Assembly: GCA_000002445.1 (NCBI GenBank)
Contig: CP000071.1
Location: forward strand, 2,208,001-2,272,000
DNA from: Trypanosoma brucei
Taxonomy: Eukaryota
Direction of reading: 5' to 3'
Length of the DNA stretch: 64,000 bases
Positions 956 through 53,586 of the stretch are shown here, one piece after another (positions within the stretch are counted from its first letter, which is position 1; each line of letters starts with the position of its first letter). Position numbers and translations under genes: made by a program. The notes under the pieces were generated by a model. It saw only the letters and a list, made by a program, of their open reading frames with translations, ran no database searches and was not told where the DNA came from.

Positions 956-987
956 TTGGCTTATGTGTAGCATATCGGAATGTATCG

Positions 988-2360: not shown

Positions 2361-2396
2361 TGTATAACCACAAAGACACTTAACCACCAAAAGAAA

Positions 2397-7304: not shown

Positions 7305-7837
7305 GTTTAGCGCCGTCCTATGTGTTGGCTATCTGCTTCACATTGTACGTAATGACAGCCTTCTTTGGTTACATGGATTTTGGTGGGGCTGTTACTGGAT
7401 CTGTGCTTCTGATGTATGACCCAGTGAATGAACCTGCAATTATGGTCGGTTTCGTTGGTGTGCTCGTCAAGCTATGCGTATCATACGCTATTCTCGCTAT
7501 GGCTTGCCGCAATGCACTGTATGATGTCGTGGGATGGGATGCCGACAAGGTTGCCTTCTGGAAGCATTGCATTGCCGTTGTTACTCTCTCTGTCGTCATG
7601 TTGCTGTGTGGCTTATTCATCCCCAAAATCACAACTGTGCTGGGATTGGCTGGTTCCATCTCTGGTGGATCGCTGGGTTTCCTATTTCCCGCCTTATTGG
7701 TGATGTATTCCGGTGGCTTTACGTGGCAGAAGGTGGGTCCGTTTTATTATCTTACTACATACGCTGTATTACTTACAGGTGTTATTGCCATTGTATTTGG
7801 TACGGGAGCGACCATCTGGGGAACTGCGACTGGTTAA
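7305..7837 (+). pseudogene. 5'-truncated paralog A fragment (last ~177 codons), possibly expressible as chimeric ORF 7280-7837
   Basis: Matches 3265-3797 of paralog A nearly base-for-base. The upstream junction follows ...cctatgtgttggct, which in the downstream unit (11340) continues into unrelated sequence. An in-frame ATG at 7280 in spacer sequence creates a 185-aa ORF covering the last ~5 TM helices. The region around 7375-7395 carries B-like bases (FGGAVTG instead of FGRAVTG). Confidence 0.7.
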
Positions 7838-8387
7838 TTGGTTTATGTGTAGCATATCGGAATGTATCGTTTTAACGGGTTTATCGAGGCATGAACAGTA
7901 CTATAAGTGCTGTAAAATAATATTATCATCACTATTATAGCAATGACACTGAGCGTAAACGTTACTAATAACACGGAAGTGAATGACTAGGCGACTTCTC
8001 TTTCCGCTTCACTACTCAAAAATATAACAACACATATTTTGTTTTTCTGCTGTTTCTGACAGTATAGTCCCCAACCCCAACTGAATCGCTTCAACCCAGG
8101 TCGGTTGATGTTTTTTCCCTAGTTGGCAACGCGCTCCAACATATCTTCGTTTAGTCTATGCGTGGCATCTGTAGAGTGGGTGGCTGGGACAACGCCATCT
8201 GTCTCCAGTTCTCGCACGCTGTTCTTCGACCGATATTTCATTATCTATTTTTTTTCTTACTGTTTTTGTTATGTCGATTATTATTTTAGCGTGGGGTTAA
8301 TCCTGTTGTATGATGTAAACTAGTTGTATTGTTGCAATTGTTTATTTTTTTATTCCGAGAAAAGGTAAATTTGGGTTGTCTGATCAC
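7838..8387 (+). repeat. A-to-B intergenic spacer, copy 2
   Basis: Nearly identical to 3798-4345. Confidence 0.8.
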
Positions 8388-22502: not shown

Positions 22503-23906
22503 ATGACATCCGGAGCTGCTGCACAAGCACCAAACAAGTGCCCTACCAATGAGGCGGCGGCGGAACCGTTACGCGTTCCAAACGTTCTCACGGGTGAACC
22601 GTTCGTTAGCCCCAACTCGAATGAAGGAGAAGCACTGGAGAAACCTGAACGGCCAACCAATGCGCTGGCGCGGTGTTTCCATTTTATCTTGCCGCGCGGT
22701 GGTGCCCTTTCCGGCATCTTCAACCTGGCAAGTGTTACATTGGGTGCCGGTATCATGTCAATTCCATCCGCTTTCAACACATCGGGCATGATCATGGCAA
22801 TCATCTATTTGGTGCTGGTTACGGTTTTTACCGTCTTCTCCATTTTCCTGATTGTGTCTGCGGCGGAAAAGACCGGCTACCGCAGCTTTGAGTCCATGGC
22901 GCGTAATCTACTCGGTCGCCGTGCTGATATTGCCGTGGGTTTTCTGTTGTGGCTTCTGTGCTTTGGCGGTGCCTCTGGATATGTGGTGGCAATCGGTGAC
23001 GTCCTCCGGGGGTTGCTTTCACATGAAAAGGTGCCGGCGTACCTTAAAACAGACAGGGCTCGCCGTCTTCTGATGGCCGCCATTTGGTTTGTCTTCATCT
23101 TTCCCTTGGCGCTCCCTAAGAGGGTGAATTCATTGCGCTATGCGTCAGCGATCGGCGTTTCGTTCATCCTATTCTTCGCCATCTGTGTGGTGGAGCACTC
23201 GGCTGAAAAGATGGTTGCCGATGGCGGTATCAAGCAGGAACTTGTCATGTTCCGCTCCGGTAATGACGCCGTGGCAGGGCTTTCGCTATTCATTTTCGCT
23301 TATCTTTGTCATGTAAACTCATTCTCCATCTTCTTTGAGATGAAGAAGCGTTCCGTCACTCGTATGACCCGCGATGCGGCGGTGAGCTGCTCCGTTTGCT
23401 GCTTTGTCTACCTGCTCACTGGATTTTTTGGCTACGCAGAATTCGGCACAACAGTGGAAGGCTCCGTTCTGAAACTTTACGACCCCTACGCAAATCCCGT
23501 CTTCTTTGTTTGCTTCGTTGGCATCATCGTAAAACTCTGCGCTGGGTTTTCGCTTAACATGCTCGCATGCCGTACAGCCCTCTTTCAGGTGCTGCGGTGG
23601 GACCTGGATACCATGTCATATGTTAGGCACAGTATCGTCAGTGTTTCATTTGCTGTCGGTTCGCTCGTTCTCGGTTTGTTCGTGCCAGACATCAACGTTA
23701 TCTTCGGGCTTGTCGGCGCCTTCTGCGGTGGCTTCATTGGCTTTATATTCCCAGCACTCTTCATCATGTACGCCGGTGGTTGGACACGCCAAAGCGTGGG
23801 CTGGGTGCAGTATATATTGACGTATGTATTGCTCATCTTGGGCGTTGTTGCAATTGTCTTTGGTACTAGCACGTCCATTTATTACACAATTAAGAAGTAC
23901 TATTAA
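22503..23906 (+). CDS. Amino acid transporter (AAAP/AAT family), divergent third type (467 aa)
   Basis: Hydrophilic N-terminal tail, then about 11 hydrophobic helices. It shares AAT blocks with paralogs A and B (GALSGIFNLASVTLGAGIMSIPSAFNTSGMIMAIIYL; LYDP; GLFVPDINVIFGLVGAFCGGFIGFIFPALFIMYAGGW) at only ~35-40% identity. Confidence 0.8.
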   Translation: MTSGAAAQAPNKCPTNEAAAEPLRVPNVLTGEPFVSPNSNEGEALEKPERPTNALARCFHFILPRGGALSGIFNLASVTLGAGIMSIPSAFNTSGMIMAIIYLVLVTVFTVFSIFLIVSAAEKTGYRSFESMARNLLGRRADIAVGFLLWLLCFGGASGYVVAIGDVLRGLLSHEKVPAYLKTDRARRLLMAAIWFVFIFPLALPKRVNSLRYASAIGVSFILFFAICVVEHSAEKMVADGGIKQELVMFRSGNDAVAGLSLFIFAYLCHVNSFSIFFEMKKRSVTRMTRDAAVSCSVCCFVYLLTGFFGYAEFGTTVEGSVLKLYDPYANPVFFVCFVGIIVKLCAGFSLNMLACRTALFQVLRWDLDTMSYVRHSIVSVSFAVGSLVLGLFVPDINVIFGLVGAFCGGFIGFIFPALFIMYAGGWTRQSVGWVQYILTYVLLILGVVAIVFGTSTSIYYTIKKYY

Positions 23907-24956
23907 GAAAGGCAAGGGAAGGAGTGCAAACGGTCCGTGAGGGGAACGGCAACTCGGTAGGCTTTGGGATGCACTTTACTGAGCAAATAAACAGCTAAAG
24001 AGTGATTTTTACTTCTTAACTTTTTATATGGGCCTTTATCCTTTATTATTTTACCCATACGGTTCTATTGTTGTACGCATCCCATACTCGAACCACTTGG
24101 CTGCGGTTTTCGCCCACAAGAACAGTTCAACCTTAGCTGCAGAAGCGTGAGACCGTTGCGGCGGAGTGGGATCCATTTTTCCATCATTTCTTTCCGTTGT
24201 TTGGTATACTTTTTTCTGTTGTTGTTATTTCTTTCCTCACTTTTTTTTCGTTGACCTTGGCAAGTTGCGGGGGGCTAGTCCTTTACACGTGTGTGAAAAG
24301 AATGACGGTCACTTGTGCGGCCTAACTAACCCAATGGGTAAACTGAACTAGCGAAACAGCTAAATGTTTTAACACCTTCCACTACAATTATTCTTTTTTC
24401 TACCAATCCTTAAAGCTACAGCCCTTCCCTCAAGTGTTTTACCTGTTTATTTTTATTTTAACTGACAAACTCTCAGCGTTGTTCTCCACCTTGGCGGTAT
24501 CGCCAAATCTCGGTTTTTACAATCTCCATCTAAAATACTGAGTTATAATTGCACACTTACAACCTCCAGCAGTCCATGTGAATACTGAATCCAGTGCCAA
24601 AAACTATTCCCTCTTTTTTCTTTTTTTATTTTTCAACCCCCAACACCTAGTGTACTACATACAGATAGAAGGGCAGCGTTAATAATTAAAAAAACACACG
24701 AACCACAGCAACACCCACCGACAATACATAGTCACCATTTCTTAACCAGTTGCGACTCATTTTATACATCAAACAAGCAGCAAAATCAACAACGAACTAA
24801 TAAAAAACTACATACCACCACAAAAAAACACAAACAAAAAGTTAAGGAAAGAACCTTCTAAAGGCAACATCACTTTTCCAGCCAACAAACATCTATATTT
24901 CACGCAAAATTCACCAAAAAAAATTTTTTAACAACGAAATATGAAGTTTTGCACAA

Positions 24957-25396
24957 AAACACGCATTCTTGCACAACCTGCACAACGTTGCATGTTTGTG
25001 CACAAAATGCGCACTATTGCGTATTTTCACGTAAAACACGCGTTCATACGTGTGTTTGTGCAAAAACAGTGTTGCAATGCAACATGTAACGTGTTTTGGC
25101 GTANNNNNNNNNNNNNNNNNNNNNNNNNNNNNNNNNNNNNNNNNNNNNNNNNNNNNNNNNNNNAAACACGCATTCTTGCACAACCTGCACAACGTTGCAT
25201 GTTTGTGCACAAAATGTGCACTATTGCGTATTTTCACGTAAAATACGCGTTCATACGTGTGTTTGTGCAAAAACAGTGTTGCAATGCAACATGTAACGTG
25301 TTTTGGCGTAAAACACGCATTCTTGCACAACCTGCACAACGTTGCATGTTTGTGCACAAAATGTGCACTATTGCGTATTTTCACGTAAAATACGCA
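24957..25396. repeat. Tandem satellite, 147-bp unit, at least 2.6 copies visible, interrupted by an assembly gap
   Basis: Units begin at 24957, 25164 and 25311 (aaacacgcattcttgcacaacctgcacaacgttgcatg...) and are ~98% identical. Each unit holds two related hairpins, cgt[ag]tttt-N5-aaaa[tc]acg, and the palindrome gttgca-a-tgcaac. Confidence 0.9.
25103..25163. other. Assembly gap (61 N) inside the satellite array
   Basis: A run of N placed exactly at a repeat-unit boundary, so the true copy number is unknown. Confidence 0.99.
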
Positions 25397-25875
25397 ATAA
25401 TTTGTAAAACTGGTAAATTCTTATGAAGGAGGTGAATATACATAAAAATTGTAATGATGTAGTTTATTCTGTTTGGAATTCTGTATTCGCTATAATTTTA
25501 TTACGCTTTTTATAGCATTCGTATTGGAGGTATTGTCTTCTAATAAATATGTCGTTGTTATTTCCAGGTGGTAATGTGGTATGTCGCTATTCTGCCTTTT
25601 ACGTTTTTTTGAAATGTTTTTTCGTGCCTTCGTGGGAGTTTCCCCCCACTGGCGCGGCAATCAGCCACCACCGTAGAGCCCTGAGATGCTATCGGTCTGG
25701 CGACTGTGGCAGAGTCTCCCTTTTTTCTTCATCCTAACACACCCTCTATAATTTTTGTTGTAGCTCCGCAGTTGAACGGAATACAGCAGATGGGGCGAGA
25801 AGCCCCCCTCCACCCCGGACTCTCCAAAAGATGTCAATTAGCAATCCTTTTGTTTTGATTTTTGTTATTCGTTTA

Positions 25876-26984
25876 TTATTCTCTCCCCCTCTTTCTGTTT
25901 CTGGTGCTTGTTGACAGCATACCCCCTCTGTCTCTGAGGGTGTCTGGACTATTCCTGCGTCCGGTGCTTTCCCTGCTAGCTCCACTCTCGGCAATAAGGG
26001 GGGAAGTTGCAGAAGGGAGAGTGGGTTGTATGACTGTTACATTAGGTGAGGACTTCACCCGCGGCCGGCTCCGTTCAACCGCAATGAGGAACTGCGCCAG
26101 CCTTTTAGAGAAGCATATATCCTGCACACACACCCCTTCTACCACAAACCTGACACGTAATTCCTTCAAACAGGGACAGTTCATCAGGTGCAGCGACGTT
26201 TCTTCGCAGTCGCCGCGTTGGCTGGTAACAGCGCGCTCTACCTTCATACCGTGGATCTTCTTTTGATGTAGGGTGAGGCCAGTTTTGTTAGTACACTGCC
26301 TTCCGCATGTCGGGCACACCAACATGGATGTGTTTGTATGTGGGGAATCAGTGGCACACAATTTTGTGCTTTTGCTGCATTTAAGCTCGACTTCTTCACC
26401 TTGTGGAAAGCCTTACAGTGTCGGATGAGGGAGTCCCTGCAACTGAGCACTTTTTGGCACACACCACACTGCACCTCGCCCTTCCCCGGGACGTCAACGT
26501 TTCCCTCACGGGCACGCTTACGAGGGAATTGCACCACCACCACGGTACCGTCCTCCGTCACTATGCTCTTATGTTTGAATTTCTTGTGTAGTGACAGGGA
26601 AGAGCGTGTACCGAAGCTCGCCTCGCACAGGTCACATTGAAACGGCAGCTTCCGTGTATCCTGAGAGGCTGGCGCTGCTGGGGCTCTACCATCTCCTTGC
26701 AATGAGTCTTCGTTCTCTCGCCCCCTTTTCACGCGACAACTACCGCTGCCTATGCCATGTATTGTTCTAAGGTGGTGTAATAGTCGGCCTGGCACTGCGA
26801 ATTTGGAGGCACAGAGGGTACAATGAAGCACCTGCGGTCTCATCGTGACTCGTGTGCTCGATGGTAGAGGAACGATCGCCACCACTGGACAGGGCTCCGG
26901 GGGGATGTCCACTGCAGGTGTTGCATCGCCGTATTTGATCCTCCGGGGGGCATCAGCTCGCACAAAGCCATGCTTGTTTACCAT
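25876..26984 (-). CDS. C2H2 zinc-finger protein (at least 4 fingers), minus strand; apparent frameshift between ORFs 26984-26244 and 26361-25876
   Basis: Classical C-x2-C-x12-H-x4-H fingers: HCTLCASKFAVPGRLLHHLRTIHG, FQCDLCEASFGTRSSLSLHKKFKH, VQCGVCQKVLSCRDSLIRHCKAFH in the first ORF, and VCPTCGRQCTNKTGLTLHQKKIHG in the second. The two ORFs overlap by 118 nt in different frames. This is the only convincing minus-strand gene in the window. Confidence 0.6.
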
Positions 26985-29900
26985 GTGCGTTACAGCACTC
27001 GACCGGCGCTAGCCATGGGCTTTGTGCTTACGCCGTCTCATTTCATCACCAGTGCGTGTCATATTGTTTTTCGCCGTCGCAGTGGTCGCACGGGTTGTTG
27101 GAGTTCGACGCTTTGTAAGCCGAGCTTTGTACTTTTCATTTCAGGCACTGCAGTGGTGTTCGCGTGTCGATATTTCGCAGCATCCATTTTCAATACCAAG
27201 AGGCAACGGGGCGGGAACGAGCCACTGCCACCTCTTCTTCGCTCGCTTTTCCCCTGACAGCAATATCGGTCCCATGTAGGTTACAATATCCTGGAGCTTC
27301 GCGTCAGGCAACTGCGGCATGTCAGTCACCCTTTCCACCATACCATCAATCATCCCATTCCATTCCACATCAGTAACTAAATACAAACTTCAATGTGGTA
27401 TACGCTTTCCCTCCCGTATTTGTAGGAGAAGCACCCGTAGCTTATTTGGGTGTTGGTCTGCCACGGTGGGATGGGTCTACTTCCAATACCATGAGCGGCA
27501 ACAGCGAGTTTGTGATTGTCAAGAGTCTGCTCAGGGGCGACGCCGGCCACCTCAACGTGGTGCCAAGTTCCAGCGCCCCGTATTTTCAGAGGAGGCCAAT
27601 AGTCAGCAGCGTTTCTCTAGTGGGGAACTCTGCTTTGCTCCAGCTCCGGCTTCTCATAGCGTCGGGGCCGGTCGCGTTTTTCTGGGGCACCGTTTTTCAC
27701 TTCTCGGTCCCGGACACGTGCCAGCACATCATAAGCAGCGTCCGGAGTTTTCTCTATGACGTTGTATACGTTTGGAAAACATCCAGTGACATTCCCGCAC
27801 CCTTTTCTATTGCTAGGGATTCTGTTGGGTTACTGCGGGCCGATGGGGCTGCATTTGCCCGCTTCACGAATATCAGTTTGTTTCCCCCACATGTTGTCGT
27901 AGCTGTCCCATTCTTTTCCCCCCCAATAATGCAGATCCCTCAGTCCACGGCCCGTGGCATCTACCAGCCGGTGATTGTAGACTGTTTCCACTGAAGTGCC
28001 GCGGAATCTGCTTCTTCCATGCTTTTATTTTCATATCTTTGTGATCTTCCGCGCGTATGAGCCTTATTTAATTGCGAAAGAGAACCCTGTTGCTGTATCG
28101 AAGTTTGAGGAAAGTAACTGGGGGCTTACACCACTTGACACAAGGGGATTGGTGATCTCGTGTGATGTATCTCCTCGTGATATTGGTCATGAAAATTCGG
28201 AAGCACTCTTCCTCTGCATTGCGCTACACCGCAGCTTTTCCATTTCACTTCTCAGACCAACATGGGCTTGGCACTACGTATGGAACGCTCTTGAGCTGTA
28301 GGCCCTTGCCGTCAGGGAGGGCGTTCTCCCAGTGTATTCTCTATGATACACCTAAAAATGATATAGCTTAATCTTCGCTATTCAACAGCAAACGCCTTGC
28401 GAGCACTCACCCACACGTCGCAGAAAACACACTTCGATTATCGACATGGCATAGGCTCGTGCTAGCGTGCTGTAAAACACTTTTGCGTTGCCGAGGCTTG
28501 GGAACCATATCAGCGGGGGCACTGCCACTATTCGAAGCATCCTGAAGTTGGTTTTTATTTCCTTTCCAGACAGTGTGTCTGTGTAGGGATTCCGCGCATA
28601 CATTGAGTCCTCAATCTAAGTACCTTCGGTATTCTCTTTGTCCCCGTAAGCGCCACATCGAGGTATAGGTGAAGCGGTGCTCATGCCGTCCGACCGAGGA
28701 GTCAATTTCCTTTTCGTCACATTGGCTTCCATCACGTATTTTATAGATCACCGTAGCACAATATGTGGAGACCCCTCTGATGTACGTGGTTGATGGTTTC
28801 CCTCGCCTTATCCCGAGCAATCAGTATTAATTTCATTCAAAGAAAAGCCATGTTATATTGGGCGTACTTCTGCTAGCCATCAGACCATCGAGTTTCCCTC
28901 CAACATGATACTTGAGATACGACTGAGCGTGGTTAGTCGCGTTACACTCTTCCCAAAACAACATTATGTTCCAAACCATTTATCTAGTCCTTACTATTTC
29001 CATCTTTTCATTGTGAAGAAAGCTAAAACATTTGATGATGCACCACCGTGCATTTAACATTTTCCGCTACCGCACCGAGCTTGTCATGCTCAACTTTCCC
29101 CCAAAAGGGCCCTCCCATACTCAAAGAATATACCATACCTATACGTGACGTTAGTGATGGACGGCTAAAAGCTGCTGAAGGGTTCAGAAGAGGATCTTCC
29201 AATGTGTGGTGGTACACTTTTCCTTCCTTATACGAAACCTCAATTTTTTCACAGTCTAAGTCGAGTATGGTTCATTCGTTTAGTAACTTTCCGTGTGCAC
29301 CTCGTGAGCGTCACCAGTTCGTATGAGTTTTCATATTTCATTTTCTTAAAAGCTGCTAGGGCATGGATGTTCAGACGACACATGATTCTGTTTTGATGTT
29401 TCGATTCTCTTCTACGGACTCATATCAAACAGTTAAAGCAAGAGCGTAAATTATTTGTTTCTGGGATGTTACTGTGTTTCGCTGCCCAGATAAAGGGAGG
29501 CAGCCGCTGAGACACGTGGTAGCTGATGCGGTGATATTATGGGTTGAAAAAGTGTTATCGTTCGGAGCTATATCATTTTTGTGTTTATAAACACTAACTA
29601 TTGTGAGTAGCTATGCCCTTTGAGAGACGAAGGGCATAGGTCAGGGAAGTGCCTCACCCGTTACCGGCCACTGGCAGAAGCTTCGTGCGCCATAGCCAGC
29701 GGAGTGCTGTGAAACATTGGAGTATATATATACATATGCTGGTGATGCATCACCCATATGGGTCTTAAACCTTTAGTCGTCACAAAAATGCACACCACCT
29801 CTTCAATGCCACACGATCCAGCGGTTGCTTCCGCATAGCACTCAGCCCTTCCTCAATTTAGTGAGATCAAGCTCTTAGTAGCGTTTATCTACAGGGTTAA

Positions 29901-32900
29901 GAAAGTTCGTGTGCCCAGTGTTGTATTGTACTGTGGTGTTCCCCTACTCACTCGTGGGGCAGCTCCAGCAGGTTGAAATAAGATCGTGGGGTAGAAGTCA
30001 ATCGTTTGCCCAAACCACATAAACTCCGCCATTTCTGCCCTTTTTGTCCTTGTACGGTCCCGTGGTCGTCCTTCCGAATTCACCCCACTTAAGTTTGGTT
30101 CATACATGAAAAAGAGGTTTCCGACACTGGCGGTTCAGGTTATCCATTGTGTTTTTCCACTAAATTACACAGGATAAGATAGGGTGATGGTACATATTTG
30201 CTGAAGTGTAGTGATATCCATGCGTACGCCCCGCGCTATCTTTACAGGGGATGCATCATGTTCGGGCTTCGCCGCTCAGTGCGGGCACTTAGTGCCATGG
30301 CCAGTTTTTGGTTGACTCGAAAATGGTTGTTGATACAGCGCCGCATTAAAGTTTTTCCTTTGGTATGTGGTTGGATGGTGCGGCATCAGGAAGGCGCGTT
30401 GGCAAGAGCACCGGCACCAATGAGTTACGCAAGTCACGTTACGCGCACTGGCTTATTTACCCCTAGCATAAAAGTGTGGTGTGACAGAGTTACTAGTGAA
30501 AGCGACGATTTGCATCCTCTCTTGTAGATAGGCGATGGCCTGCGTATCTTAGACGTGTGAAATGACTTCTGTTCATAGCTCTGCTAGAAGGTCTTCCATA
30601 ATGAGCATACGAGCATGCCGCTACCTTCTTACAGATGTAGGTTGTCTTGTGATATGTTGGTAAAAGGTAGCGCTTATGGACCTTGATTCTGTAGTTGTTA
30701 TCCTAGTTCCAGTCACGACACAGAAGGTTGAAAACGCATCAACAAGCGTTTTATAAAATATACTGGGATTACTTTCCTCTGGAACGTGGTGCAACTCTAT
30801 TGATGTTCCAATGCCAGAACTTTTATAGACCTCCCTTTGCGTGAGTGGACGGAGGTGTCCTTTGGCATGGGCAATCATCGGATAATGCGTTCCCAGGGAT
30901 CGAAGAGTGCATAGTTGTATTCCACACCGACGCCAGTTGCTACGTTGGTGCGCGGTGCTGTAGCGGGGGCACATAAATCAATGTCTTGTTGCAGTGGAAC
31001 ACCGCCGTCTTGTTATCTTCCCCTAAACGTACGACGCACCAAGCCTTGCTCCTATGTTATGGTGGCCGTCACAGCCAAATTGCCAAAGATAACCATTCCC
31101 GCACATGGGGAGGTGCCTAACCTTCCTAGCCCATCTTTTCAAACACGCCAGTCTGTCTTAATACATTTAATCTCTGCAACATATGAACCCTCTTTCATTC
31201 ATCTTATGCATTCGCTTTCAGGTTTCCTGGGGGGAAGAATTTATGTGCACTCTGATTTTTGATTTCGTAATTCAATCTTACCACTGAATTAAGCCATCCA
31301 GATGTTAGATGTTTCCGATAATATGGTCGGCCTTTTAGCCCGAAAAGTGTCCTTTCTCAGCGTTTCGCGTCACGTAATATTACACTTTCCTTTCGTGTGC
31401 CACCCGCACAACGGATATCCGTTGCAGTTCTGAATGTGTCTTGCTTGTTTGCGTCCGATGAAACCCCCAAAATTGTGTACACTGACTGAGTTTGCATCCT
31501 TTCTGTTTCTCCCATGTTTAAAGTAGAGGGTGAAAACAAGCAGTCAGAGACCCTGTAGAACATATCTACTCGTACAAATCCTGGGCAAAAGCCTTTCAGC
31601 GCTTCCCTTTAGGGAGCCCATTCAGACGATGTCACTGCCTTTAGCTTCGGCAATCTTGCCCTTGCTAACCTCACTTTTCGTTGAGCACGCTTCGACAGTA
31701 CCTCCGGTAACTGTAATGAAAAGTTTCAAAAGCCTTCTAATTGTCGCATTATCAATCCTTTTTCTACGTGCCGTGATGTACGTGAGAGATTGTGATTGCT
31801 CCATCCAAACAATGTGTGTTCTCTTTTCCCCCTTCCATGTTGTAATCCCCCATAAAGTGTCTCTTAGACCACTAGGTTACACAACTCCCTCCGTCTATAG
31901 GCGTACATTTCATGTCCTCCTTGTCAGATACCGCTACCTTCAGTGTCAGCTCGACAGCGAATAGGCTGTACATGAGTCCAGGCGCCTTATTTGATTTTAC
32001 AGTCATACAATCCATCGTTGCAATGAAGGGGTAGCGGCTTCATACCGGTCACTGTGGAATGGAATGCATCAATATTACATTCCCATATAAAGTGTTGTGT
32101 AGTTGGAACATCGCAGTTCTGTCCACCATTAAGTAGTTTACTCACCATATCGCTCGTGGATCTACTTTAAATCGATCTGGCGCTCAGATGGTAGAGATAT
32201 GTCCCACCGAGACAAATAGATTTACATAGTCCAGAACTGTCTCTACGACTCAGGAATGGTTATCCTGCTGCATGATTGCATTTACCGCTTCCACAATGAA
32301 GTTGGTGGTGCCCTCAATGGTCAGTAACCCGACTGTCATCGCTGCTGCTGCTCTCCCACGCAGTTTTTAAGTTTCCTGACCGTCACTATCTCGATGAGTT
32401 CGTACACGGTACCGATTACCATCTGCAGCCCGGGTGATCCAACTTTTTAGTTGATTCATTCAGCTCAAAGAACAGTGATGTGGTGACCTCCTTTCTCCAC
32501 CGTTCAGTAGTTTCGCCGAGTCTTGGCGGCGGTATTTTCTTTTGTTTTTTTTTAAGTGCCGAAGTAAACATGACCTTTAGTTTCCCGCATTTAACTCTTT
32601 CCCCTGCTGCCATTTGTTAGACCGATAGTTCTTTTGTTTCTTTTTCGGTTCGACACACGCAAGCAGTTCAGACAATTCTAGGTATAGGGAAAATTCATCC
32701 TTGGGGTCACCGAATTTCCTACGGAACACTTCACATACATATCCTCAAATCGCTGAGCCTCCATTTTTTCCTTTTTCCCAAGTGTGTGACACATCCTCCA
32801 TTATTAGGACAGGGTCGATGTCGGTCGCAGTGCCAATACCGATTTCGGCGAGACTCAAGCTTTTCGTCTATCAGCAGCTTGGAAGTGCTTCTTCCCCCAT

Positions 32901-34593
32901 TACCTTGCGGCCGTTTCGCTTAGTACACACTTTCTTGGGTGAATGAATACTGACCTTCCCCTATGGTTCCACGCTAAGTCATTTTACCCCCAAGTACCAC
33001 CAATACCATGACCCAATGTGGCGGCACCGAACCTCGTCTATTAGTGATTGCTGTTTCTGGCAGGCGCACCGCAGATGCAGTAGATCCACTGGGCTCGTTA
33101 TCTCCCCTTTACATTCCATTCAGCCGGCTTACAGGGCTTATCAGCACACTGTTTTCGGAAATGTGGCCAGTTCGTTCTCCCCACACGGAAACAAAGTACT
33201 ACGGCACTTGAAGTGCTCGATCCTTCCTATGTTGCTTCCCACTGCTCCACAGAAGGTAACCTCAGCCACGCCTCCTGTTAAAGCCTTTAATCGCATTCTA
33301 AGATGTCGCCCCGTGGTTTACAGAGCAGACGACACTGGGGGACGGCATTTCTATCTTAATCGCCCCGCCAAGCACGCCTCCTTTCCGGTCCTGGTGTTGT
33401 CGCACGCGGTTACCCCTCGCCGCTACATACCAAACAGTCTTGTTGTTTCGATGCTACGGAGGAACTGTCGCTTAATTTACTGCTGGTCGGAACGCCGGAC
33501 CCCTGCGCGACGGAGAAACGGCGGACGCAGCTGGGGTCGGCAATGATAGCAGCACGTTTGCGTGGCATACCTGGCGGGTGCTCCTGGTAGCCGAGGTAGC
33601 AGTTTTCTCTTACCGGAGGCTTGCTGTAAGCAACTGGCCGTTGCGTGTGTTCCTGTGTGTGGAGCGACCTCGTGTTGACGTATAACGAAGCTTCGGGTGG
33701 GGGAGTACGGCAGCCGGGGTTCGCTGGCTCCACGCATCCGAGGGAGTGTGTACGAACACCGCCATTTGGACATCACCAGATGCGCCAGCCTGTAGCCGGT
33801 ACCGGCCGGGTGGGGATGCGCCTGCCCTGCGTGCACTCGCTCGGGTACCGTATCTGTACGTATGTAAGCCGCGTGGGCGCCTTTGATCACCGGGTGGTTT
33901 CCAGCCGGCCGTCGGACTCCGTTGCTGCCTGCGTGCGAGCCGCTCGGTGAGGGTGATATAGCCACCGAGGACGGGAGCTGTCGTCTTTGTTTTTTTCTGC
34001 AGGTCTGGCTTGTTTGATTCGATAATCATGCAGATCAGGTGGTTGGTTACTCGGTCACGTTCTCTCCGCTCCTTTTGGTGATGTAACAGGAGAAGCGGTT
34101 TGTAGCACCCACTGAGGGGGTGCGTCCGCTTGGCCGATCTACGGGCGGGTCGCATCTCCCATGTTTTAAAAGCGGGGCTGCAACCAGTGTTGATTGTTTG
34201 AGGCGTCGCAGAAGCATACGGAACACGCAAGCCAGCGTTTCAACTGATTTGCTCTGTTTGAACGCGTAGTAAAGCAAAGTTCATTTGTTAGGTAACAACA
34301 AAAGCTCACCAGTGCTGTGGTGCTACTGCAGACTGCGCAGAAGACACCACACCAAAATAACATCAGTTTAGATACAGTATCTCTCGAGTGTATGAACTAC
34401 CGTAGCAACGGTGCTGACTGCGTTTTAGTGGACGGGGTTGGGGTTGTGCACGTCTTAGTGAGGCTTAGTGTGTGTGTGTGTGTGTGTAGGGGGGGGGGAA
34501 GGGGGACGTCTGCCAGGTACGGATTTTATTTGTTGCCACAGTTATGATTTTTTTTGTTTTTTGGCGTGACACGCTAGTGCACTGTATCGCAAA

Positions 34594-34595
<2 letters not shown>

Positions 34596-34624
<29 letters not shown>
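34596..34624 (+). repeat. (CAA)n microsatellite
   Basis: caacaacaacaacaacaacaacaacaa, read directly. Confidence 0.95.
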
Positions 34625-37169
34625 GTTTATTAGTGCCCTACAAGCCCTCTGAGGATCTTGCTTACTCTACTATGAAGTGCTTAATTGCTTCACGCTACTA
34701 GCGACAGTTGATAGAATGACTGGTCGCAAAAACCGTGATATTACAAGGGAGGATGAATCACTTCCGGAGTATTGGTGTCTTGTTCTCAGTAAATGCACAA
34801 GTTTCTATTTCTTTTACCGAGCAAACGCATTTAAAAATCAAATATATACCCAGACACAAGCAGCCAGGGAGAATTGGGTTTACCACTGGCTATACGACTT
34901 TTATCGTTTTCTTCGAGAGGTTTTAACGGAAAATCCCCATTTGCTGAACTTAGGTCAGTGTCACAACAAATTCTGAGGTTTTTGTGGGGCGTCTTTGTTT
35001 TTTCTTTTATCTTAGAGCCTTGGGGTCCCAAGCGTTTGTTCTGTATAATTTCATTAGTGTCGTAGAAAACTTAACGCTTCCGTGCCGATGTTCTCTTTTG
35101 AAGGAATCATTCACGCTACAGACCCCTCTAAAGACTGGTTTCACCAGCGTGGGGGAGGGACTAAACCGCAAAAAAAAAAAAAGAGTGACCGGACCCCTGC
35201 ACCTTGTCAAAGGACTAGTGTCCTGGCTTTGTAGCCAATAATATTCACCACCTTTGAGCGCTGATGCTTCTGTTTTCTTTTTTTTTTTTTTGGCTCTGAC
35301 TTAGGTGGTCCCAAGAAGGTATGGTTTAGAGAAGTATATCATTAGACTGTGCCGAGTATTGAGAAATGGATGCTCTTGAAAGTGCAACTATACCATAATC
35401 GATTGTGATTACTGCTTTTTTTTTTTTTAAAATGTCATGTTAGCACACATTTCGGCTGCTTAATTACCGACTATCAAATGACTGCTTTGTGTAACCCGTT
35501 CCAACTAAGAGGGACTTCACTGGGAACGGTTGTGGGCTTCAGTAAAATGTACGGGCTGCTTACCACTGAAGGCTGTCTCGGACGGGCAGCCCTTCTAAAC
35601 ATTTGGTCCCCATAAACTCCATATCGAATAATGATTACATTATTAAATCATCACGCTGGCGTCAAACTCCTTCGAACGTGAACACGAGAAGCTGGGGGAT
35701 ATAGTCACATTTGGAGCGGTTGTCCATGAGCAGGGTTCTTAGGCATATATGCTTTGAAGCATTTGTTCTTGTTGTTGTTTGCATCCGAGGAATTCTTGCT
35801 AACTGACAGTTTTCTGCAGGTAAAACAAAAATACGATGTTGATGGTCAACGATTCCGCCATAGTTAGTCATCACTGACTCCATATATTACGTTCACGTAA
35901 GGCAACCGGTCCTGTTTTTTCCTAGAAATTGTGTGGTAACTGGGCCCTATATTTGCCAATCATCCATACCACTGTGGGATTTACTGCGACATAGTTGGGG
36001 TAGGGGAAGGGTGTTAACGACAGACCATGTGAGTGCCTGCAAGTTTTTAGTCGATTCGCCATGGTGACGATTTCCATTGATGATCAGATGTTATTTGGGG
36101 TGTCGCCGTAAAATTTTGTATCAATCCATTAAAGTTTTTCGCCACAGTATTTTTTTCGGCAATAAGGCGAAATGTTGTGGTGCTGCTGCGACATCACAGG
36201 CGGGAAGGGAAAAATAAAAATCATTATGTACGGTTCAGTGGTCTACGATAGAGGTTTCGACTACAGATTGGCCGCTTTTTTTTTTCTAGTTTCTATTACC
36301 TCTTGCGTTTTTACGTTCAGCCAGTGGAGGTGGTTAGGCTCGTCCTTTAGATGCCTCGGGTTACAGCGGCCGTGATTCAAGCATCTACGTGAGCACTGAT
36401 AGTGCTGCGTACTGATGTCACCGTGCGTGAAATATTAGTTTCATTTATATTAACATCAGTGCATTGTGTATGATGAACTTTTGTTGTAACTGGCCCTCTA
36501 AGTTTACCCTCACTTTAATCCCACAACTCCTCATATATGTGCTTGTGCCTCTGATTCCCTTTTTTCTTTCTTTATGTGAATAGAACACGAAGGCAAAAAG
36601 GGAAGGTTCTGAGCACCTACACGCACATAGAAAACCGTGAGGGTGGAAACTTGAAACTTCCGGGGAAACGAATCTTCCTTCTCTGTTTCACCTTCCATTT
36701 GCCCCGTCTCGCTTTTCCTTCGTGTTTTACTGTTTTTAGGATCCCCTGGAATCCGTGTTTCATAGTTCCAGTTATTTAACTGACTTGCGTCACCTGGGAG
36801 GCGGAGCGAGGAAAAAAAAAAGTTAAAAATACGGACAAAAAAGTGAGTAAAAGAGATAAAAAGCGAAAAAGACTCACGCTGCCACTATTTTTGGGTGAAA
36901 GTCTGGTACGTGTGCTGACAGGTGAATTGCTGCCATAATCATTCAAAGTATTGTATATTTGCGTTTGGTTTGAACGCTCATTAACTGGCGAGGCGAAGGT
37001 GGAGAGTGGCGACAGTCGAACCAACAACATCGCTACATACTTGACTTGCCAAGTTCCTCCCTCCCTTATTCGGGTGTATCACTTCTTTTGCTTTTTCTTT
37101 TGGCTCATTTCTGGACGTCGGTAGAGGGAGGACCACATTCACGTGTTGGCTGCTCCGCTGATTATCATT

Positions 37170-37500
37170 AAAGTGGAGGCAGTGTGAGAAGAGAAGAAGG
37201 GGAAGGAGGAGCCCATTAGAAAGCAAATCGAGGGAAAGACGTGTAGAGATAGGAAGGGACAAGGGGGAAAAAAAACAACAACTAAAACGGCGGAAAAAAA
37301 GGAAGGGAAGTAGAAAATAAATAAATCGTTAAAAGTAGATATATTACACATAACAGGTTAGGGGTGGACGGAAGGCGGCAAAAGGAGTGACGAAGGGATA
37401 ATCACAACCAGACGGAAGTAGCAAGGAAAGAAGGAATCAAAGGAAGGGGACAAAAAATCGAGGTGGATTGTCTGAGGGAGAACAGAGGGGGTGCGTGGAT
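37170..37500 (+). repeat. Polypurine (GA-rich) tract of ~330 nt on the plus strand
   Basis: aaagtggaggcagtgtgagaagagaagaaggggaaggagga...ggaaggggacaaaaaatcgaggtgg, with very few pyrimidines. Confidence 0.85.
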
Positions 37501-38544
37501 TTAGCACCATTATAACATTATATCTTATAGGAGTTCACCATTTCTTTTTTAAAACAACAGCAGTACAAATTAGTGTCGAGAAGAGAAAAAGCCAAAAGGG
37601 GAGCCTTTTGTTCCGGATTACATAAGTTGTTTTTGAAAATAACTGATCAGTAAAGCAACCAAAACAGGAGGCAACTGAACATTAAAAAAAAAGAATAGTG
37701 GCGTGTTTTATATATTGTTTGTGTATTTGTTGTGTTCAAGTTCCCTATTGTATATCTAGTTACTCATTTCCGTGCTCCTTAGCGTTAGCCCTCCATTTTT
37801 TTTACTCCCTTAAGTCTCGAGCACAAGGAGAGAAGGAGAGAAGGAGGGAAGGAGAGGAAAAATTGCGGAGAGGAGCGTGGGGTGGGGACAATTAAACGGA
37901 GAGGAAAGATTTGCTTTTTTAAATTTCATTTATATTTATACATATTTTGACGTCATTTTGTTGGGAAGCGAGTAGTAAATTCTTTCCACCAGTGAGAAAG
38001 CAAAAGAAGTTGCAAGGGGGTTGACTCGTCCGTTTGTTTTGCCTTACTGTTTTGCTGGTTGAGTTGATTCGGCTCGACTTGAAGTGTGGGGCTCCTGAAC
38101 CAACCAAAAGATTAACCGAAGGTTCTGAGTGTAGGAGGTGCAGTGAAAAAGTAGCGGTAACTTCAAAAACAAAGGCATATAAGGGGGAAGGGAATCACCG
38201 TGACATTTATACTAAATCTTGCATATACCAATTTACAAATATATAGCGTTGTGAAGCAACTGGGGCATTGCCAAAAGGGTGTGAAATAGCCAGGGATACA
38301 GCAGGGAGAAAGACGCGGTGCACGCACGGTGCGAAGGAGGGAAGTAAGAGGGAGGAGGAGATTCTACTTCCCTTTTTGGTTTTGCTTTATTCTTATTATC
38401 ATTATTATTGGAACACAACTTGCATTAAATTTTTGTTATTGAGGTCTTCATCGTTTGAATTGCTTCGTTAAACACACACACACACCCACACACACAACGC
38501 CCTCAACAACGACACCGACTTAAACACGCTCACAAAATACGCAG

Positions 38545-41500
38545 ATGGGGGCTGTGCCCAGCCGTGAGTCCTTGGGGCGCGGACTGTGCCAAATACCAGA
38601 TTATGGGCAGAAGCACAAAATGGTGCTCATTCCCTTAACGAGAGAGTTCTTCCCGTCACCCGACTGTTTGCTCTTACGGCAGCTCTTTGAGGCGCGGAGG
38701 GATCCGTTTGTCCATTACTATCACACATTCGATGAGGGGTTTGCTAAGGCGCAAGCGCCAGATCCTGCTGTGGACGCTGACGCCGCAAAACTTTATGATC
38801 TCCAGGGTCTTGTTGCTCCATCAACCAGCGCCTCCGCTACCGCCCATCTCGTTGAGGGCAAGGCATGGCGTGCTGATGACTTTGTGCCTTTTAGCTGTAC
38901 ACTGGAAGAGTTCTACGACTCGTATGTGTGCCGTATGGGCGAGCGCCGCATATACGATACAGATGAACAGATGCTCAGGTTGTGCACGCGGGACCCGAAC
39001 GCGATCCGCCCTGTGCCGTGCGCGGTAGCGTTTGCTTATAACTCTGCCCCCACGCCCTCCGTACTCGGTAATAAAGAGGCGCTTGGTGGGGAGGTCATGT
39101 TGCGTGAGGATGGTAGTAATAGTGAACTGGGTAACAGCGGTGGGGAAAGTAGAGCTGAGGTAGGGGATGCAAAGGGCAGTACGCTAGAGGAAAGCAGCAT
39201 GCTTTTTGGATTGTACGTGCGTATCGTTGGTTTCGTTGGTGGTGTGAGTGACATCTGCCCGCATGGTTGTAACGATGTGTTGCTGGAGGATACGTTTCAA
39301 CTACAAGTGTTTCTTAACAAGTCGGTTGGAGACCACAACTTTGTACACGCCTTCATAACGGCCGTTTATACCTATGTAAGGCAATGGCGTGAGGCAGCGG
39401 TGATGCACATAGGGAGTATTGAGGACCAAAGGCAACCGACGGGACGTGGCTCGGTTGAGGTAGGGGAAGGGGGACATTCTAAGGTTTCCTCCACTATGAG
39501 TGGCGAGAAGCCGTTGATGACACCTCCTGCTGCGTCTGTTGTTATTGCATGCAAGCGGACCAACGTTCCAATGCTATGTTTCCAGCGGGGGTTGCGAGCG
39601 ATGCTATCACGACTCCTAGGCATTGTGGAGTCCGAGGGGATAAGTAACCCCGGAGGGCCGTGTTGTTGTCGGTGCCGCAGAAAAAATGATTGTATTCTTC
39701 AGACGCATAAATTAGCAGCTGGGGTTCCGTTGGGTACGCCACAAGACGGCGATACCAAAGTTGTCAGCGAATGTTCTTCTGCTCCTTCTTTGGAAAAAAC
39801 TACCATGTTGGAGAATGTCTTTGACATGTGGTTGAATGGCGACGTAGTGTTTGCATGTATTCCAAAGCAAATTGTAGCACGTGCTTTGGAATGTGTTGGG
39901 ATGCGCATGGGTTGCCCAGAGTGCATAATGGACATTGTGCGACCAAAACGTACTGAAACGCGGGCGGGCTGTAACACGGAAGTGAGGACGGCGCAGTCTA
40001 ATCCCCATGTCGGAGTGGCCCGGGATGTGTGCTCGCTGCACTCAACTGCCGATGCTTTTTGCCCACAAGATGCCGTTAACGCATTGGCTACCACTGCCGC
40101 TAAGGGTTCCTCCTCAAAAGGCTATGGGGGCGGTCTCAAAGTGTGCGACTCTGAGGCCGCTGCCACTGAACTACCTGCACATCAAAAGCTGCATGACGTA
40201 TTGGGCGAGACTGTGGTTGTGGAGGAATGGCCAGTGGATGGGATCGATCTGGTCAGCTTTACGAACGCCAAGGGGGATACCATCGACCGCCCGGCGCACT
40301 TGTATTGGGTAGTTGGGCGTTCAGTGACTGCCCAAGAAACCGCAGCCTCTGCCTTTTTCTCATGGTGGGCTGGTGGGAGGCTAACGGTTATGGGAGGAGG
40401 ATGTGACGTGTCGAACGAAAGTGAGCACGAAAGAAGCAACAGTGGGAAGGGGAAAGTGGATGAACGCTTGTCGGTCGGAGAGTTGCTTTACCTCAATATG
40501 AACCCATGCCAGTCAAATGCGATGCGTCAGTGGGTTCTTCAGCGTACCACGCTCCCACTGGAGGAGCTTTTGCTATCTGAACTACATGACAGCTGCAAGC
40601 TGGCACGACAGGCGCCGGTTGATGCAGAGAACTGGCTGCGCCATACTGACATCAGCGGCCCACGAGAGCGTGACAGGTCTCTACTGCTACCGCTAGGTGC
40701 TGAGGATACCAATGGGGAAGACTTGTCAGAGTTTGCTGTTGGTGTAAGACAACTTGTTGGCGAAGGTTCGCTTTGTTTGTGGCGGGTGACACTCGTGACA
40801 GGTGCAGTGCGCGCTATAGCGGTCACACCGCACTTTCTTCGCCCGCCACGGAAAAAGCGGGCGCGCAGAAAGCCAACCCGGCGCCCGTATGCTCCGGAGC
40901 AGGCTAATGCAACATCGACGGCGGTGGATGGGGCTGCACCGGTCAACAGCTTTGGGCCCTCAGCGGAGACGCAGGCATCCAAGGGCAGAAGAGCAACGAG
41001 GTCAAAGATGGTAACAAGACGGTCGGTACCATTACCAACAGCTGTCGTATCGGAAGGTGTGCTAAGGAGCGACGAACGGTCCGCCATGTCGCCATCGTTG
41101 AGCCAAGGGCTCTGCAGGGAGGGCGGAGTCCCTCCGATGGCTCCTCCTAACACCACGCCTTCTGTGGGTTTTGGTCGTGTGCGGACTCGGCAGCAGCCTT
41201 GCTGCTACGGAAACCCTGCGCTGGCTTCCCATATGGAGGTGCCTGCATTTCCCCAAGGTCAACAATCCGGTTTTGTTGCTTTCAACCAGCCAGTTGTCGA
41301 TTCTAGTCATTCCCCCGTTTCTGATGCAAGCTATGCAAATAGGCGTACGTCGACTCCTTTTCTGAGCCGCCGAACTTCAAGGGAGGATCAACTTGGGTTT
41401 ATGCCTTACGACAGTTACAATGTTTCGCGCCGCATAAGCAGTGACGTAACAAGCCAACGCTTATCTACGGCTTCCTTCACCCATTTCCCTCGTTGGGACG

Positions 41501-53580: not shown

Positions 53581-53586
53581 ACGAAT

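What the first reader, a model, noticed from the sequence alone, without database searches (positions are those of the whole stretch)
24957..25396. Nucleosome-length (147 bp) hairpin-rich satellite sitting exactly at a convergent strand-switch, interrupted by an assembly gap
The only tandem satellite in the window has a 147-bp unit. Each unit contains two related perfect hairpins, gcgtattttCACGTaaaatacgc and cgtgttttGGCGTaaaacacg, a 13-nt palindrome gttgcaATGcaac, and the repeated motif tgcacaa. The array lies between the last plus-strand gene (ending 23906) and the only minus-strand gene (ending 25876), which is where two converging polymerases must terminate. It does not resemble the abundant 195-bp satellite known from T. 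cruzi, as far as I can recall that sequence. The 61-N gap sits at a unit boundary, so the array is probably much longer than shown. It is a candidate termination or chromatin-boundary element, or a centromere-type or replication-associated repeat.
Basis: seen in the sequence. Interest (0 to 1): 0.7.

Follow-up and report, generated by a model that had tools for sequence, protein, structure and literature searches.

The report
Known Trypanosoma brucei centromere satellite (CIR147)
The 147-bp repeat is real, but it is the already described CIR147 centromere satellite of Trypanosoma brucei chromosome 8, collapsed onto an assembly gap, and not a new element at a convergent strand-switch.

Summary
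The tandem repeat exists. There are two full 147-nt units (24957-25103 and 25164-25310, 2 mismatches) and an 85-nt partial unit (25311-25395), split by one run of 60 N.

The window is T. brucei brucei TREU927 chromosome 8: three window proteins are exact matches to AAZ13535, AAZ13536 and AAZ13537. The gene ending at 23906 is the amino-acid transporter Tb927.8.7740.

Obado et al. 2007 already list a 147-bp, 59% AT centromeric repeat between Tb927.8.7740 and Tb927.8.7750, next to a gap at 2,233,104. This fits the window gap if the window starts at 2,208,001.

The unit matches published CIR147 sequences:
- 14/15 to a TALE target.
- 45/50 to a centromere probe.
- About 91% to the Lister 427 chromosome 8 consensus.

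Syntenic loci in T. b. gambiense and T. b. equiperdum carry the same array, with at least 62 units in the latter.

The "convergent strand-switch" is not supported. Real genes on both sides are on the plus strand. The minus-strand "gene" is a frameshifted ingi-like retroelement remnant (DIRE).

Strong hairpin potential is particular to these TREU927 units and is not shared across CIR147 variants.

Published work shows kinetochore (KKT2/3) binding, topoisomerase-II cleavage, early replication and DCL2-dependent siRNAs at these arrays. Verdict: already known, low interest.

The parts
24898..24956 (.). Degenerate partial-unit remnants at the left edge of the array
   Evidence: Families D2 and D3: 24937-24956 is 75% like the first 20 nt of the unit, and 24898-24919 is 68-77% like the hairpin-1 segment.
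24957..25103 (.). CIR147 unit 1 (147 nt), the last sequence before the assembly gap
   Evidence: 98.6% identical to unit 2. The TALE target matches 14/15 on the minus strand at 25021-25035.
25104..25163 (.). Assembly gap of 60 N that stands in for the collapsed centromeric array
   Evidence: it is the only N run in the window. The position fits the gap 'at 2,233,104 bp' on chromosome 8 reported in PMC1868937 if the window starts at 2,208,001 (inference).
25164..25310 (.). CIR147 unit 2 (147 nt, 59.2% AT), built of two related halves (77 + 70 nt)
   Evidence: It is 90.8% identical to the published Tb427v12 chromosome 8 consensus. The 50-mer centromere probe BA3296 matches 45/50 at 25287-25336.
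25311..25395 (.). CIR147 partial unit 3 (85 nt), the right edge of the array. It ends inside hairpin 1, which the flank extends to a perfect 13-bp stem (25369-25399)
   Evidence: 100% identical over 85 nt. Inverted repeat I23.
25604..28556 (-). Degenerate ingi/L1Tc-like retroelement remnant (DIRE) with RNase H-like and C2H2 zinc-finger C-terminal parts. It is frameshifted, and its 3' end faces the satellite
   Evidence: C2H2 zinc-finger Pfam hits. The only database homologue is 'Tbingi protein' from T. theileri, E = 2e-16. tblastn of that protein covers 27005-26376. A gambiense RNase_H-containing ORF aligns colinearly over 28555-26843 in several frames. None of these ORFs is an annotated protein.
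22503..23906 (+). Left flanking gene: amino-acid transporter Tb927.8.7740
   Evidence: Exact match to AAZ13535.1 / XP_847601.1 of T. b. brucei TREU927 on a 2,481,190-bp record. PMC2212663 names Tb927.8.7740 as the single-copy transporter paralogous to Tb927.4.4730. It is 90% identical to the chromosome 4 paralogue.
38545..41859 (+). Next annotated protein-coding gene to the right (conserved hypothetical, 1104 aa), on the same strand as the left flank
   Evidence: Exact match to AAZ13536.1 / XP_847602.1, the accession that directly follows that of the transporter.
23907..38544 (.). Interval of 14.6 kb between two plus-strand gene clusters with no annotated protein-coding gene. It holds the satellite and the DIRE: the centromere 8 region as represented in this assembly
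   Evidence: Consecutive accessions. Five further ORFs in the interval are not in the protein collection. No Pfam hits apart from the DIRE zinc fingers. No Rfam hits.

Best explanation
These 2.6 units are the two edges of the collapsed CIR147 centromeric satellite array of Trypanosoma brucei brucei TREU927 chromosome 8, lying between Tb927.8.7740 and Tb927.8.7750. In the cell the array is tens of kilobases long.

Shown here: the identity, the position, the adjacent retroelement and the much greater real length.

Taken from the literature:
- The array is the platform on which the kinetoplastid kinetochore (KKT2/KKT3 and partners) assembles.
- It is the site where topoisomerase II acts on sister chromatids.
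- It is among the earliest or most efficient replication origins.
- Both strands are transcribed by RNA polymerase II, and the nuclear Dicer DCL2 processes the transcripts into AGO1-bound siRNAs.
- It is enriched in H3.V.

Inferred: because the array sits between two same-direction gene clusters, upstream plus-strand transcription probably ends in or before it. This would be a by-product of centromeric chromatin rather than of the hairpins.
For: Organism and locus:
- Three window proteins are exact matches to TREU927 AAZ13535, AAZ13536 and AAZ13537 on a 2,481,190-bp record.
- Tb927.8.7740 is the single-copy amino-acid transporter (PMC2212663).
- Table 1 of PMC1868937 lists chromosome 8 with a 147-bp unit, 59% AT, between Tb927.8.7740 and Tb927.8.7750, with '1.5 copies next to a gap at 2,233,104'. 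The window unit is 59.2% AT, and the gap starts at window position 25104.

Sequence identity to published CIR147:
- The TALE target matches 14/15 in all three units, against 0.17 matches expected by chance.
- The centromere 50-mer matches 45/50.
- The unit is 90.8% identical to the Tb427v12 chromosome 8 consensus, 90.7% to chromosome 5 and 86.7% to chromosome 4.

Synteny:
- The same array lies about 1 kb downstream of the orthologous transporter in T. b. gambiense (9 units, then a 100-N gap) and in T. b. equiperdum (at least 62 units, at least 9 kb, cut off by the fetch limit).
- A DIRE lies next to it, as PMC1868937 describes for T. brucei centromeres.

Function, from papers:
- KKT2/3 ChIP-seq: PMC3978658; PMC12975129 states occupancy of centromere 8.
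- Topoisomerase-II cleavage: PMC1868937.
- Array of about 100 kb: PMC3292466.
- 19,090 bp, period 147, in Tb427v12: PMC11666725.
- siRNAs and bidirectional Pol II transcripts: PMC3447711.
- H3.V: PMC4721609.
- Early origins: PMC11739655.
Against: - No functional data can be examined with these tools, so function rests on the papers.
- The chromosome coordinate of the window is inferred from the match of the gap position, not read from a record.
- The interior of the T. b. equiperdum array is closer to the chromosome 4 consensus (93%) than to chromosome 8 (87%). That scaffold also carries a chromosome 4-type locus, so its length may not describe chromosome 8.
- Whether the CIR147 sequence itself is necessary or sufficient for kinetochore assembly is unknown in the literature.
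Confidence: 0.96

Rival explanations
1. The repeat is a dedicated RNA polymerase II termination or chromatin-boundary element. Its hairpins or cruciforms stop two converging polymerases at a convergent strand-switch.
For: - The window units fold better than shuffles, with z = -3.1 to -5.3.
- The array lies in a gene-free interval between gene clusters.
- H3.V, a termination-associated histone variant, is enriched at CIR147 (PMC4721609).
Against: - The annotated genes on both sides are on the plus strand.
- The minus-strand ORFs are DIRE fragments.
- CIR147 is restricted to one centromeric locus per chromosome and is absent from the roughly 70 convergent strand-switch regions of the genome (PMC1868937; PMC3447711).
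- Both strands of the array are transcribed as RNAs longer than 10 kb when RNAi is absent, so the array does not block polymerase by itself.
- Foldability is not shared by the chromosome 4, 5 and 8 consensus units (z = -0.3 to -1.7).
Confidence: 0.06
2. The array's primary role is as a sequence-defined replication origin (ORC binding site), and kinetochore binding is secondary.
For: Centromeres give the strongest and earliest MFA-seq peaks in T. brucei (PMC11739655).
Against: - This role does not exclude the centromere role.
- Centromeres with unrelated repeat classes give equal peaks, which argues against a sequence-specific role for CIR147.
- Nothing in the window tests it.
Confidence: 0.1
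3. It is not a real biological array: either an assembly artefact (duplicated contig ends around a gap) or a dispersed transposon-derived repeat.
For: - Only 2.6 units are visible.
- The units sit exactly in phase either side of an N run, which is typical of a collapsed or trimmed assembly.
Against: - Independent assemblies of two other subspecies carry the array at the same position.
- Restriction mapping and ultra-long reads give 19-100 kb.
- There are no other copies anywhere in the 64-kb window.
Confidence: 0.01

Closest known systems
CIR147 (Chromosome Internal Repeats, 147 bp): class III centromeric satellite of T. brucei chromosomes 4, 5 and 8 (Obado 2007; Patrick 2009; Tschudi 2012; Rabuffo 2024)
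   Same: - Unit length is 147 bp and AT content is 59%.
- The locus lies between Tb927.8.7740 and Tb927.8.7750.
- A DIRE is adjacent and an assembly gap interrupts the array.
- The unit is 87-91% identical to the published consensus sequences and matches published oligonucleotides 14/15 and 45/50.
   Different: Nothing essential differs: this is a member, in fact the reference-genome copy. The TREU927 chromosome 8 units carry TTTACGTGAAAATAC instead of the chromosome 4/5 TTGACGTGAAAATAC. This fits the weaker 147R-TALE signal reported at centromere 8 (PMC12975129). They also have stronger dyad symmetry than the consensus units.
Other T. brucei centromeric repeats (about 30-bp class II on chromosomes 2 and 7; class I on chromosomes 1, 6, 9-11; 120-bp class IV on chromosome 3) and the 177-bp minichromosome repeat
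   Same: They are AT-rich tandem arrays bound by KKT2, with one array per chromosome and retroelements nearby.
   Different: They have different unit lengths and sequences. According to PMC3447711, only CIR147 yields siRNAs.
Regional centromere satellites of other eukaryotes (human alpha satellite of about 171 bp; S. pombe outer repeats with RNAi-dependent heterochromatin)
   Same: They have nucleosome-sized tandem units, flanking retroelements, bidirectional transcription and siRNAs, and rapid sequence turnover.
   Different: There is no sequence relationship. Kinetoplastids lack CENP-A and use KKT proteins, so the significance of the 147-bp nucleosome-length coincidence is unknown.
T. cruzi 195-bp satellite
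   Same: It is an abundant trypanosome satellite.
   Different: It belongs to a different species and has a different unit length. No sequence comparison was made here. T. cruzi centromeres lack repeat arrays (PMC1868937).

Membership tests
CIR147 centromeric satellite of T. brucei | Head-to-tail tandem units of about 147 bp | tested here: met
   Start-to-start spacing is 147 (207 across the 60-N gap), with 99-100% identity between units.
CIR147 centromeric satellite of T. brucei | Sequence similarity to published CIR147 sequences (units on chromosomes 4, 5, 8-11 share more than 90% identity according to PMC1868937) | tested here: met
   14/15 to the 147R-TALE target. 45/50 to centromere probe BA3296. 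90.8%, 90.7% and 86.7% to the Tb427v12 chromosome 8, 5 and 4 consensus sequences, with gaps counted.
CIR147 centromeric satellite of T. brucei | AT content of about 59-62% (59% for chromosome 8) | tested here: met
   The unit is 59.2% AT, against 59% in Table 1 of PMC1868937.
CIR147 centromeric satellite of T. brucei | Chromosome 8 copy lies between Tb927.8.7740 and Tb927.8.7750 and is interrupted by a gap at 2,233,104 | tested here: met
   The flanking proteins are exact TREU927 matches with consecutive accessions. The transporter is Tb927.8.7740. The gap starts at window position 25104. The absolute coordinate is inferred.
CIR147 centromeric satellite of T. brucei | [quoted passage not shown] | tested here: met
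   An ingi-like remnant lies at 25604-28556 on the minus strand. The 14.6-kb interval has no annotated protein-coding gene.
CIR147 centromeric satellite of T. brucei | Array of tens of kilobases | tested here: inconclusive
   The window shows 2.6 units around a gap. The syntenic T. b. equiperdum locus has at least 62 units, but that scaffold may join onto a chromosome 4-type array. The literature gives about 100 kb (TREU927 mapping) and 19 kb (Lister 427).
CIR147 centromeric satellite of T. brucei | KKT2/KKT3 occupancy and etoposide-induced topoisomerase-II cleavage | not testable with these tools
   Literature only: PMC3978658, PMC12975129 and PMC1868937.
CIR147 centromeric satellite of T. 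brucei | Source of DCL2-dependent, AGO1-bound siRNAs from both strands | not testable with these tools
   Literature only: PMC3447711.
Convergent strand-switch region (cSSR) of a trypanosome polycistronic genome | Two polycistronic gene clusters on opposite strands whose 3' ends face each other | tested here: not met
   The left cluster is on the plus strand and ends at 23906. The next annotated genes (38545-41859, 44048-46747, 48929-50632, 53560-56055) are also on the plus strand. The minus-strand ORFs are DIRE fragments.
DIRE (degenerate ingi/L1Tc-related element) | Similarity to the ingi/L1Tc ORF (RNase H region and C-terminal C2H2 zinc fingers), broken by frameshifts and stops | tested here: met
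   zf-C2H2 Pfam hits. 'Tbingi protein' hit at E = 2e-16. A gambiense RNase_H-containing ORF aligns colinearly in at least 3 frames over 28555-26843. Reverse-transcriptase and endonuclease parts were not detected.

The most novel reading that the evidence does not exclude
Centromere 8 lies inside the 0.5-Mb chromosome 4 / chromosome 8 duplicon (Tb927.8.6930-8360).
- Its left neighbour Tb927.8.7740 pairs with Tb927.4.4730, and its right neighbour Tb927.8.7750 pairs with Tb927.4.4580.
- The paralogous interval on chromosome 4 holds ordinary genes and no CIR147.

The most novel reading not excluded is that centromere 8 was seeded after the duplication, at a spot where gene redundancy allowed about a dozen genes to be lost, and acquired the CIR147 satellite from chromosomes 4 or 5. 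The alternative is that a centromere carried in the duplicon was deleted from chromosome 4. Either way this would be a datable centromere gain or loss in a CENP-A-less eukaryote. The two duplication papers I checked do not mention centromeres.
Probability: 0.3. Interest if true: 0.4.

Novelty: already known. Interest (0 to 1): 0.08.

Why it matters
It matters little as a discovery. The element, its position, the assembly gap and its centromere function were published between 2007 and 2026.

The check is useful in three ways:
- It shows that the scan correctly picked out a centromere from raw sequence.
- It corrects the species and the strand-switch reading.
- It shows that hairpin potential is not a shared property of this satellite family, so hairpins should not be taken as the mechanism.

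One small follow-up is the position of centromere 8 inside the chromosome 4/8 duplicon. This could date a centromere gain or loss.

Tried and rejected
- TRF on the window did not report the array, because the N run splits it. The repeat finder was needed.
- Rfam at gathering thresholds found nothing in the window.
Stop-free fragments of 28.5-38.5 kb gave no Pfam hits.
- The look-up of encoding contigs found no record for the exact TREU927 proteins. Orthologues from gambiense and equiperdum were used instead.
- A protein-level search with the translated repeat, meant to find spurious ORFs called in other CIR147 arrays and so map other chromosomes, returned nothing. Genome-wide distribution therefore rests on the literature.
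- I first read the window units as 'edge variants', because the first three units of the T. b. equiperdum array are 96-97% identical to them and the interior only about 90%. I dropped this after the published consensus sequences showed two things: the window units fit the chromosome 8/5 type, and the equiperdum interior fits the chromosome 4 type.
- I first thought the array marked the end of the chromosome 4/8 duplicon. PMC2212663 shows the duplicon continues past it.
- The 4-nt extension of hairpin 1 at the right array junction (25369-25399) was considered as the trace of an inverted junction. No further reverse-complement similarity follows it, so it is treated as chance.

Full report
**1. 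What is in the sequence**

Between 24957 and 25395 there is a head-to-tail repeat with a 147-nt unit.
- Unit 1 is 24957-25103.
- A run of exactly 60 N follows (25104-25163). It is the only N run in the window.
- Unit 2 is 25164-25310.
- An 85-nt partial unit is 25311-25395.

Units 1 and 2 differ at two positions, and unit 3 is identical to unit 2 as far as it goes. If the Ns are removed the array is exactly in phase, which is how a collapsed satellite looks in a finished assembly.

TRF found no other repeat with a period above 24 in the 64 kb. It also missed this array because of the gap. BLAST of the unit against the window found no other copy.

- Hairpin 1 (9-bp stem, loop CACGT) is perfect in units 2 and 3 and has one mismatch in unit 1.
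- Hairpin 2 (8-bp stem) spans the unit boundary and is intact once.
- The 'palindrome' GTTGCAATGCAAC is a 5-6 bp stem with a 3-nt loop.
- TGCACAA occurs 10 times in or beside the array, out of 14 in the window.
- The gap is 60 N, not 61.

The unit is 59.2% AT. It consists of two related halves of 77 and 70 nt, which begin AAAYACGCRTTC and end CGTRTTTTSRCGTA. Decayed partial units lie just upstream at 24898-24956.

**2. Organism and locus**

The ORF ending at 23906 is an amino-acid transporter. Its closest relatives are all trypanosomatid. An exact-sequence look-up gave these matches:
- 22503-23906 is AAZ13535.1 / XP_847601.1.
- 38545-41859 is AAZ13536.1.
- 44048-46747 is AAZ13537.1.

All three belong to Trypanosoma brucei brucei TREU927 and sit on a record of 2,481,190 bp. 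The accessions are consecutive, so the deposited annotation has no protein-coding gene between 23906 and 38545. Six ORFs tested inside that interval are not in the protein collection at all.

Jackson 2007 (PMC2212663) names Tb927.8.7740 as the single-copy amino-acid transporter paralogous to Tb927.4.4730. The window gene is 90% identical to the chromosome 4 paralogue.

**3. This is the published chromosome 8 centromere repeat**

Table 1 of Obado et al. 2007 (PMC1868937) lists the following for chromosome 8:
- Unit of 147 bp and AT content of 59%.
- Position between Tb927.8.7740 and Tb927.8.7750.

The window gap starts at 25104. With a window start of 2,208,001 (exactly 34.5 x 64,000 + 1) the two positions coincide. 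This step is inference, but it is a tight fit.

Echeverry et al. 2012 (PMC3292466) give coordinates 2233201-2233419 for the same remnant and infer a true array of about 100 kb by restriction mapping.

The repeat family was named CIR147 (PMC3447711). Three independent published sequences match the window:
- The 15-nt 147R-TALE target (PMC12975129) matches 14/15 in every unit, where 0.17 matches are expected by chance.
- The 50-mer 'CEN' probe BA3296 (supplement of PMC8178753) matches 45/50 at 25287-25336.
- The Lister 427 v12 consensus sequences (supplement of PMC11666725) are 90.8% (chromosome 8), 90.7% (chromosome 5) and 86.7% (chromosome 4) identical with gaps counted. Most differences from the chromosome 8 consensus are single-base indels.

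The chromosome 8 consensus shares the window's CACGTAAAATACGC variant. This differs by one base from the TALE target, and it fits the paper's remark that the TALE labelled centromere 8 only 'to some extent'.

**4. Related loci**

I fetched the DNA around the orthologous transporter in two other assemblies.

In T. b. gambiense DAL972 chromosome 8 (L003):
- The flank is 98% identical to the window up to the array.
- Nine units follow and then a 100-N gap.

In T. b. equiperdum (L001):
- The same flank runs into an array of at least 61.9 units, at least 9 kb.
- All units are in one orientation, and the array is cut off only by the fetch limit.

One caveat applies to the equiperdum locus. Its first three units are 96-97% identical to the window unit. 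The interior is about 90% identical to the window unit, is closer to the chromosome 4 consensus (93%) than to chromosome 8 (87%), and carries the exact TALE target in 56 units. That scaffold also holds a chromosome 4-type locus, while the right flank of centromere 8 is on another scaffold. It may therefore join two chromosomes through their shared satellite.

**5. The surroundings: not a convergent strand-switch**

All convincing genes in the window are on the plus strand, on both sides of the array.

The 'only minus-strand gene' consists of two overlapping, frameshifted ORFs (25876-26361 and 26244-26984).
- Both carry C2H2 zinc fingers.
- The only database relative is a 'Tbingi protein' of T. 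theileri, E = 2e-16 (tblastn footprint 27005-26376).
- A gambiense ORF with an RNase H domain aligns colinearly, in several reading frames, along the minus strand from 28555 to 26843.

This is a degenerate ingi/L1Tc-type retroelement (DIRE) whose 3' end faces the satellite. Obado et al. describe exactly this kind of neighbour for every T. brucei centromere.

The rest of the interval to 38.5 kb gave no Pfam, Rfam or exact-protein hits. The array therefore sits in a 14.6-kb interval without annotated protein-coding genes, between two same-direction gene clusters.

**6. Hairpins**

The window units fold better than dinucleotide shuffles as single-stranded DNA:
- z = -3.1 and -3.8 for two registers of the plus strand.
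- z = -2.6 for the minus strand.
- z = -5.3 for 233 nt.

The property is not shared across the family:
- The major unit of the equiperdum array gives z = -0.7.
- The Lister 427 consensus units give -0.3 (chromosome 8), -0.9 (chromosome 4) and -1.7 (chromosome 5).

Consensus sequences copied from a PDF and built from nanopore data may contain indel errors, so this is indicative only. Only the hairpin-1 stem (GCGTATTT / AAATACGC) is kept in all variants. I therefore do not regard hairpin richness as the functional feature.

**7. How it works**

Shown here: identity, position, the adjacent DIRE and the much greater real length.

From the literature:
- Topoisomerase II cleavage concentrates at these loci (PMC1868937).
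- KKT2 and KKT3 are enriched on them, including centromere 8 (PMC3978658; PMC12975129).
- Centromeres are the earliest or most efficient origins (PMC11739655).
- Both strands of CIR147 are transcribed by Pol II, and the nuclear Dicer DCL2 processes the transcripts into siRNAs that make up 8.6% of small RNAs (PMC3447711).
- H3.V is enriched there and restrains those siRNAs (PMC4721609).
- CIR147 centromeres cluster in the nucleus (PMC11666725).

Inferred: transcription of the upstream plus-strand cluster ends in or before the array and restarts before 38545.

The 147-bp, nucleosome-like length has been remarked on before (PMC3292466). Its meaning in an organism without CENP-A is unknown.

**8. 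Verdict**

- The strand-switch and termination-hairpin reading, and the T. cruzi framing, are not supported.
- Interest is low.

The one point I did not find discussed in the two duplication papers I checked concerns the position of centromere 8. It lies inside the chromosome 4/8 duplicon, while the paralogous chromosome 4 interval has ordinary genes and no satellite. This implies a centromere gain or loss after the duplication.

Noticed in passing
window 24957-28556, compared with L004 and L006 11423-21422: Centromere 8 (CIR147 plus DIRE) lies inside the 0.5-Mb chromosome 4/8 duplicon. Tb927.8.7740 pairs with Tb927.4.4730, and Tb927.8.7750 pairs with Tb927.4.4580. The chromosome 4 paralogous interval carries ordinary genes (PPR, Sld5 and others) and no CIR147. 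This implies a centromere gain on chromosome 8 or a loss on chromosome 4 after the duplication. Neither PMC2212663 nor PMC11067883 mentions centromeres.
   Followed up: partly
window 25604-27007, compared with L003 15196-16600: The 1.4-kb ingi C-terminal segment next to the array is 95% identical but inverted between TREU927 and T. b. gambiense. Gambiense has an intact-looking 523-aa RNase H ORF on the plus strand (L003 13791-15362), where TREU927 has a diverged, frameshifted minus-strand version (27008-28556). This is either a real inversion at the centromere edge or a misoriented contig beside the gap.
   Followed up: partly
L001 (CM010675.1, 883,532-904,935), L006 (the same record, 1.94 Mb) and L002 (CM010679.1): In the T. 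b. equiperdum assembly GCA_003543875.1, the left flank of centromere 8 and a chromosome 4-type locus are on one 2.37-Mb scaffold. The right flank of centromere 8 is on another scaffold. The array interior is chromosome 4-like. The scaffold probably joins two chromosomes through the shared CIR147 satellite.
   Followed up: partly
L003 12421-13620; window 24941-25426 and 24911-25384: Because 147 = 49 codons, an open frame stays open through the array. Gambiense has an annotated 399-aa 'gene' made entirely of CIR147 units. The window shows 157- and 161-aa ORFs across the repeat and the gap. These are spurious ORFs.
   Followed up: yes
window 5-10028: Upstream there is a tandem family of amino-acid transporter genes and fragments (five ORFs of 185-565 aa, plus one further fragment seen by tblastn). 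They are 38-47% identical to the transporter that flanks the centromere. This is probably the Tb927.8.76xx-77xx transporter array.
   Followed up: no
window 28557-38544, especially 33000-34300: About 10 kb with no annotated gene and no Pfam or Rfam hit, yet 97% conserved in gambiense and equiperdum. It includes a 62% GC patch with ORFs of 160-210 aa on both strands. Gambiense annotates the 176-aa plus-strand ORF (33016-33546). The nature of this stretch is unknown.
   Followed up: partly
window 25369-25399: At the right end of the array the flank extends hairpin 1 to a perfect 13-bp stem (TATTGCGTATTTT / AAAATACGCAATA). The satellite therefore ends exactly inside a dyad. No further inverted similarity follows, so this may be chance.
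   Followed up: yes
L003 12437-13689: The gambiense units at this locus repeat with a 150-bp period (77 + 73) rather than 147. They are 95% identical to the window unit.
   Followed up: no
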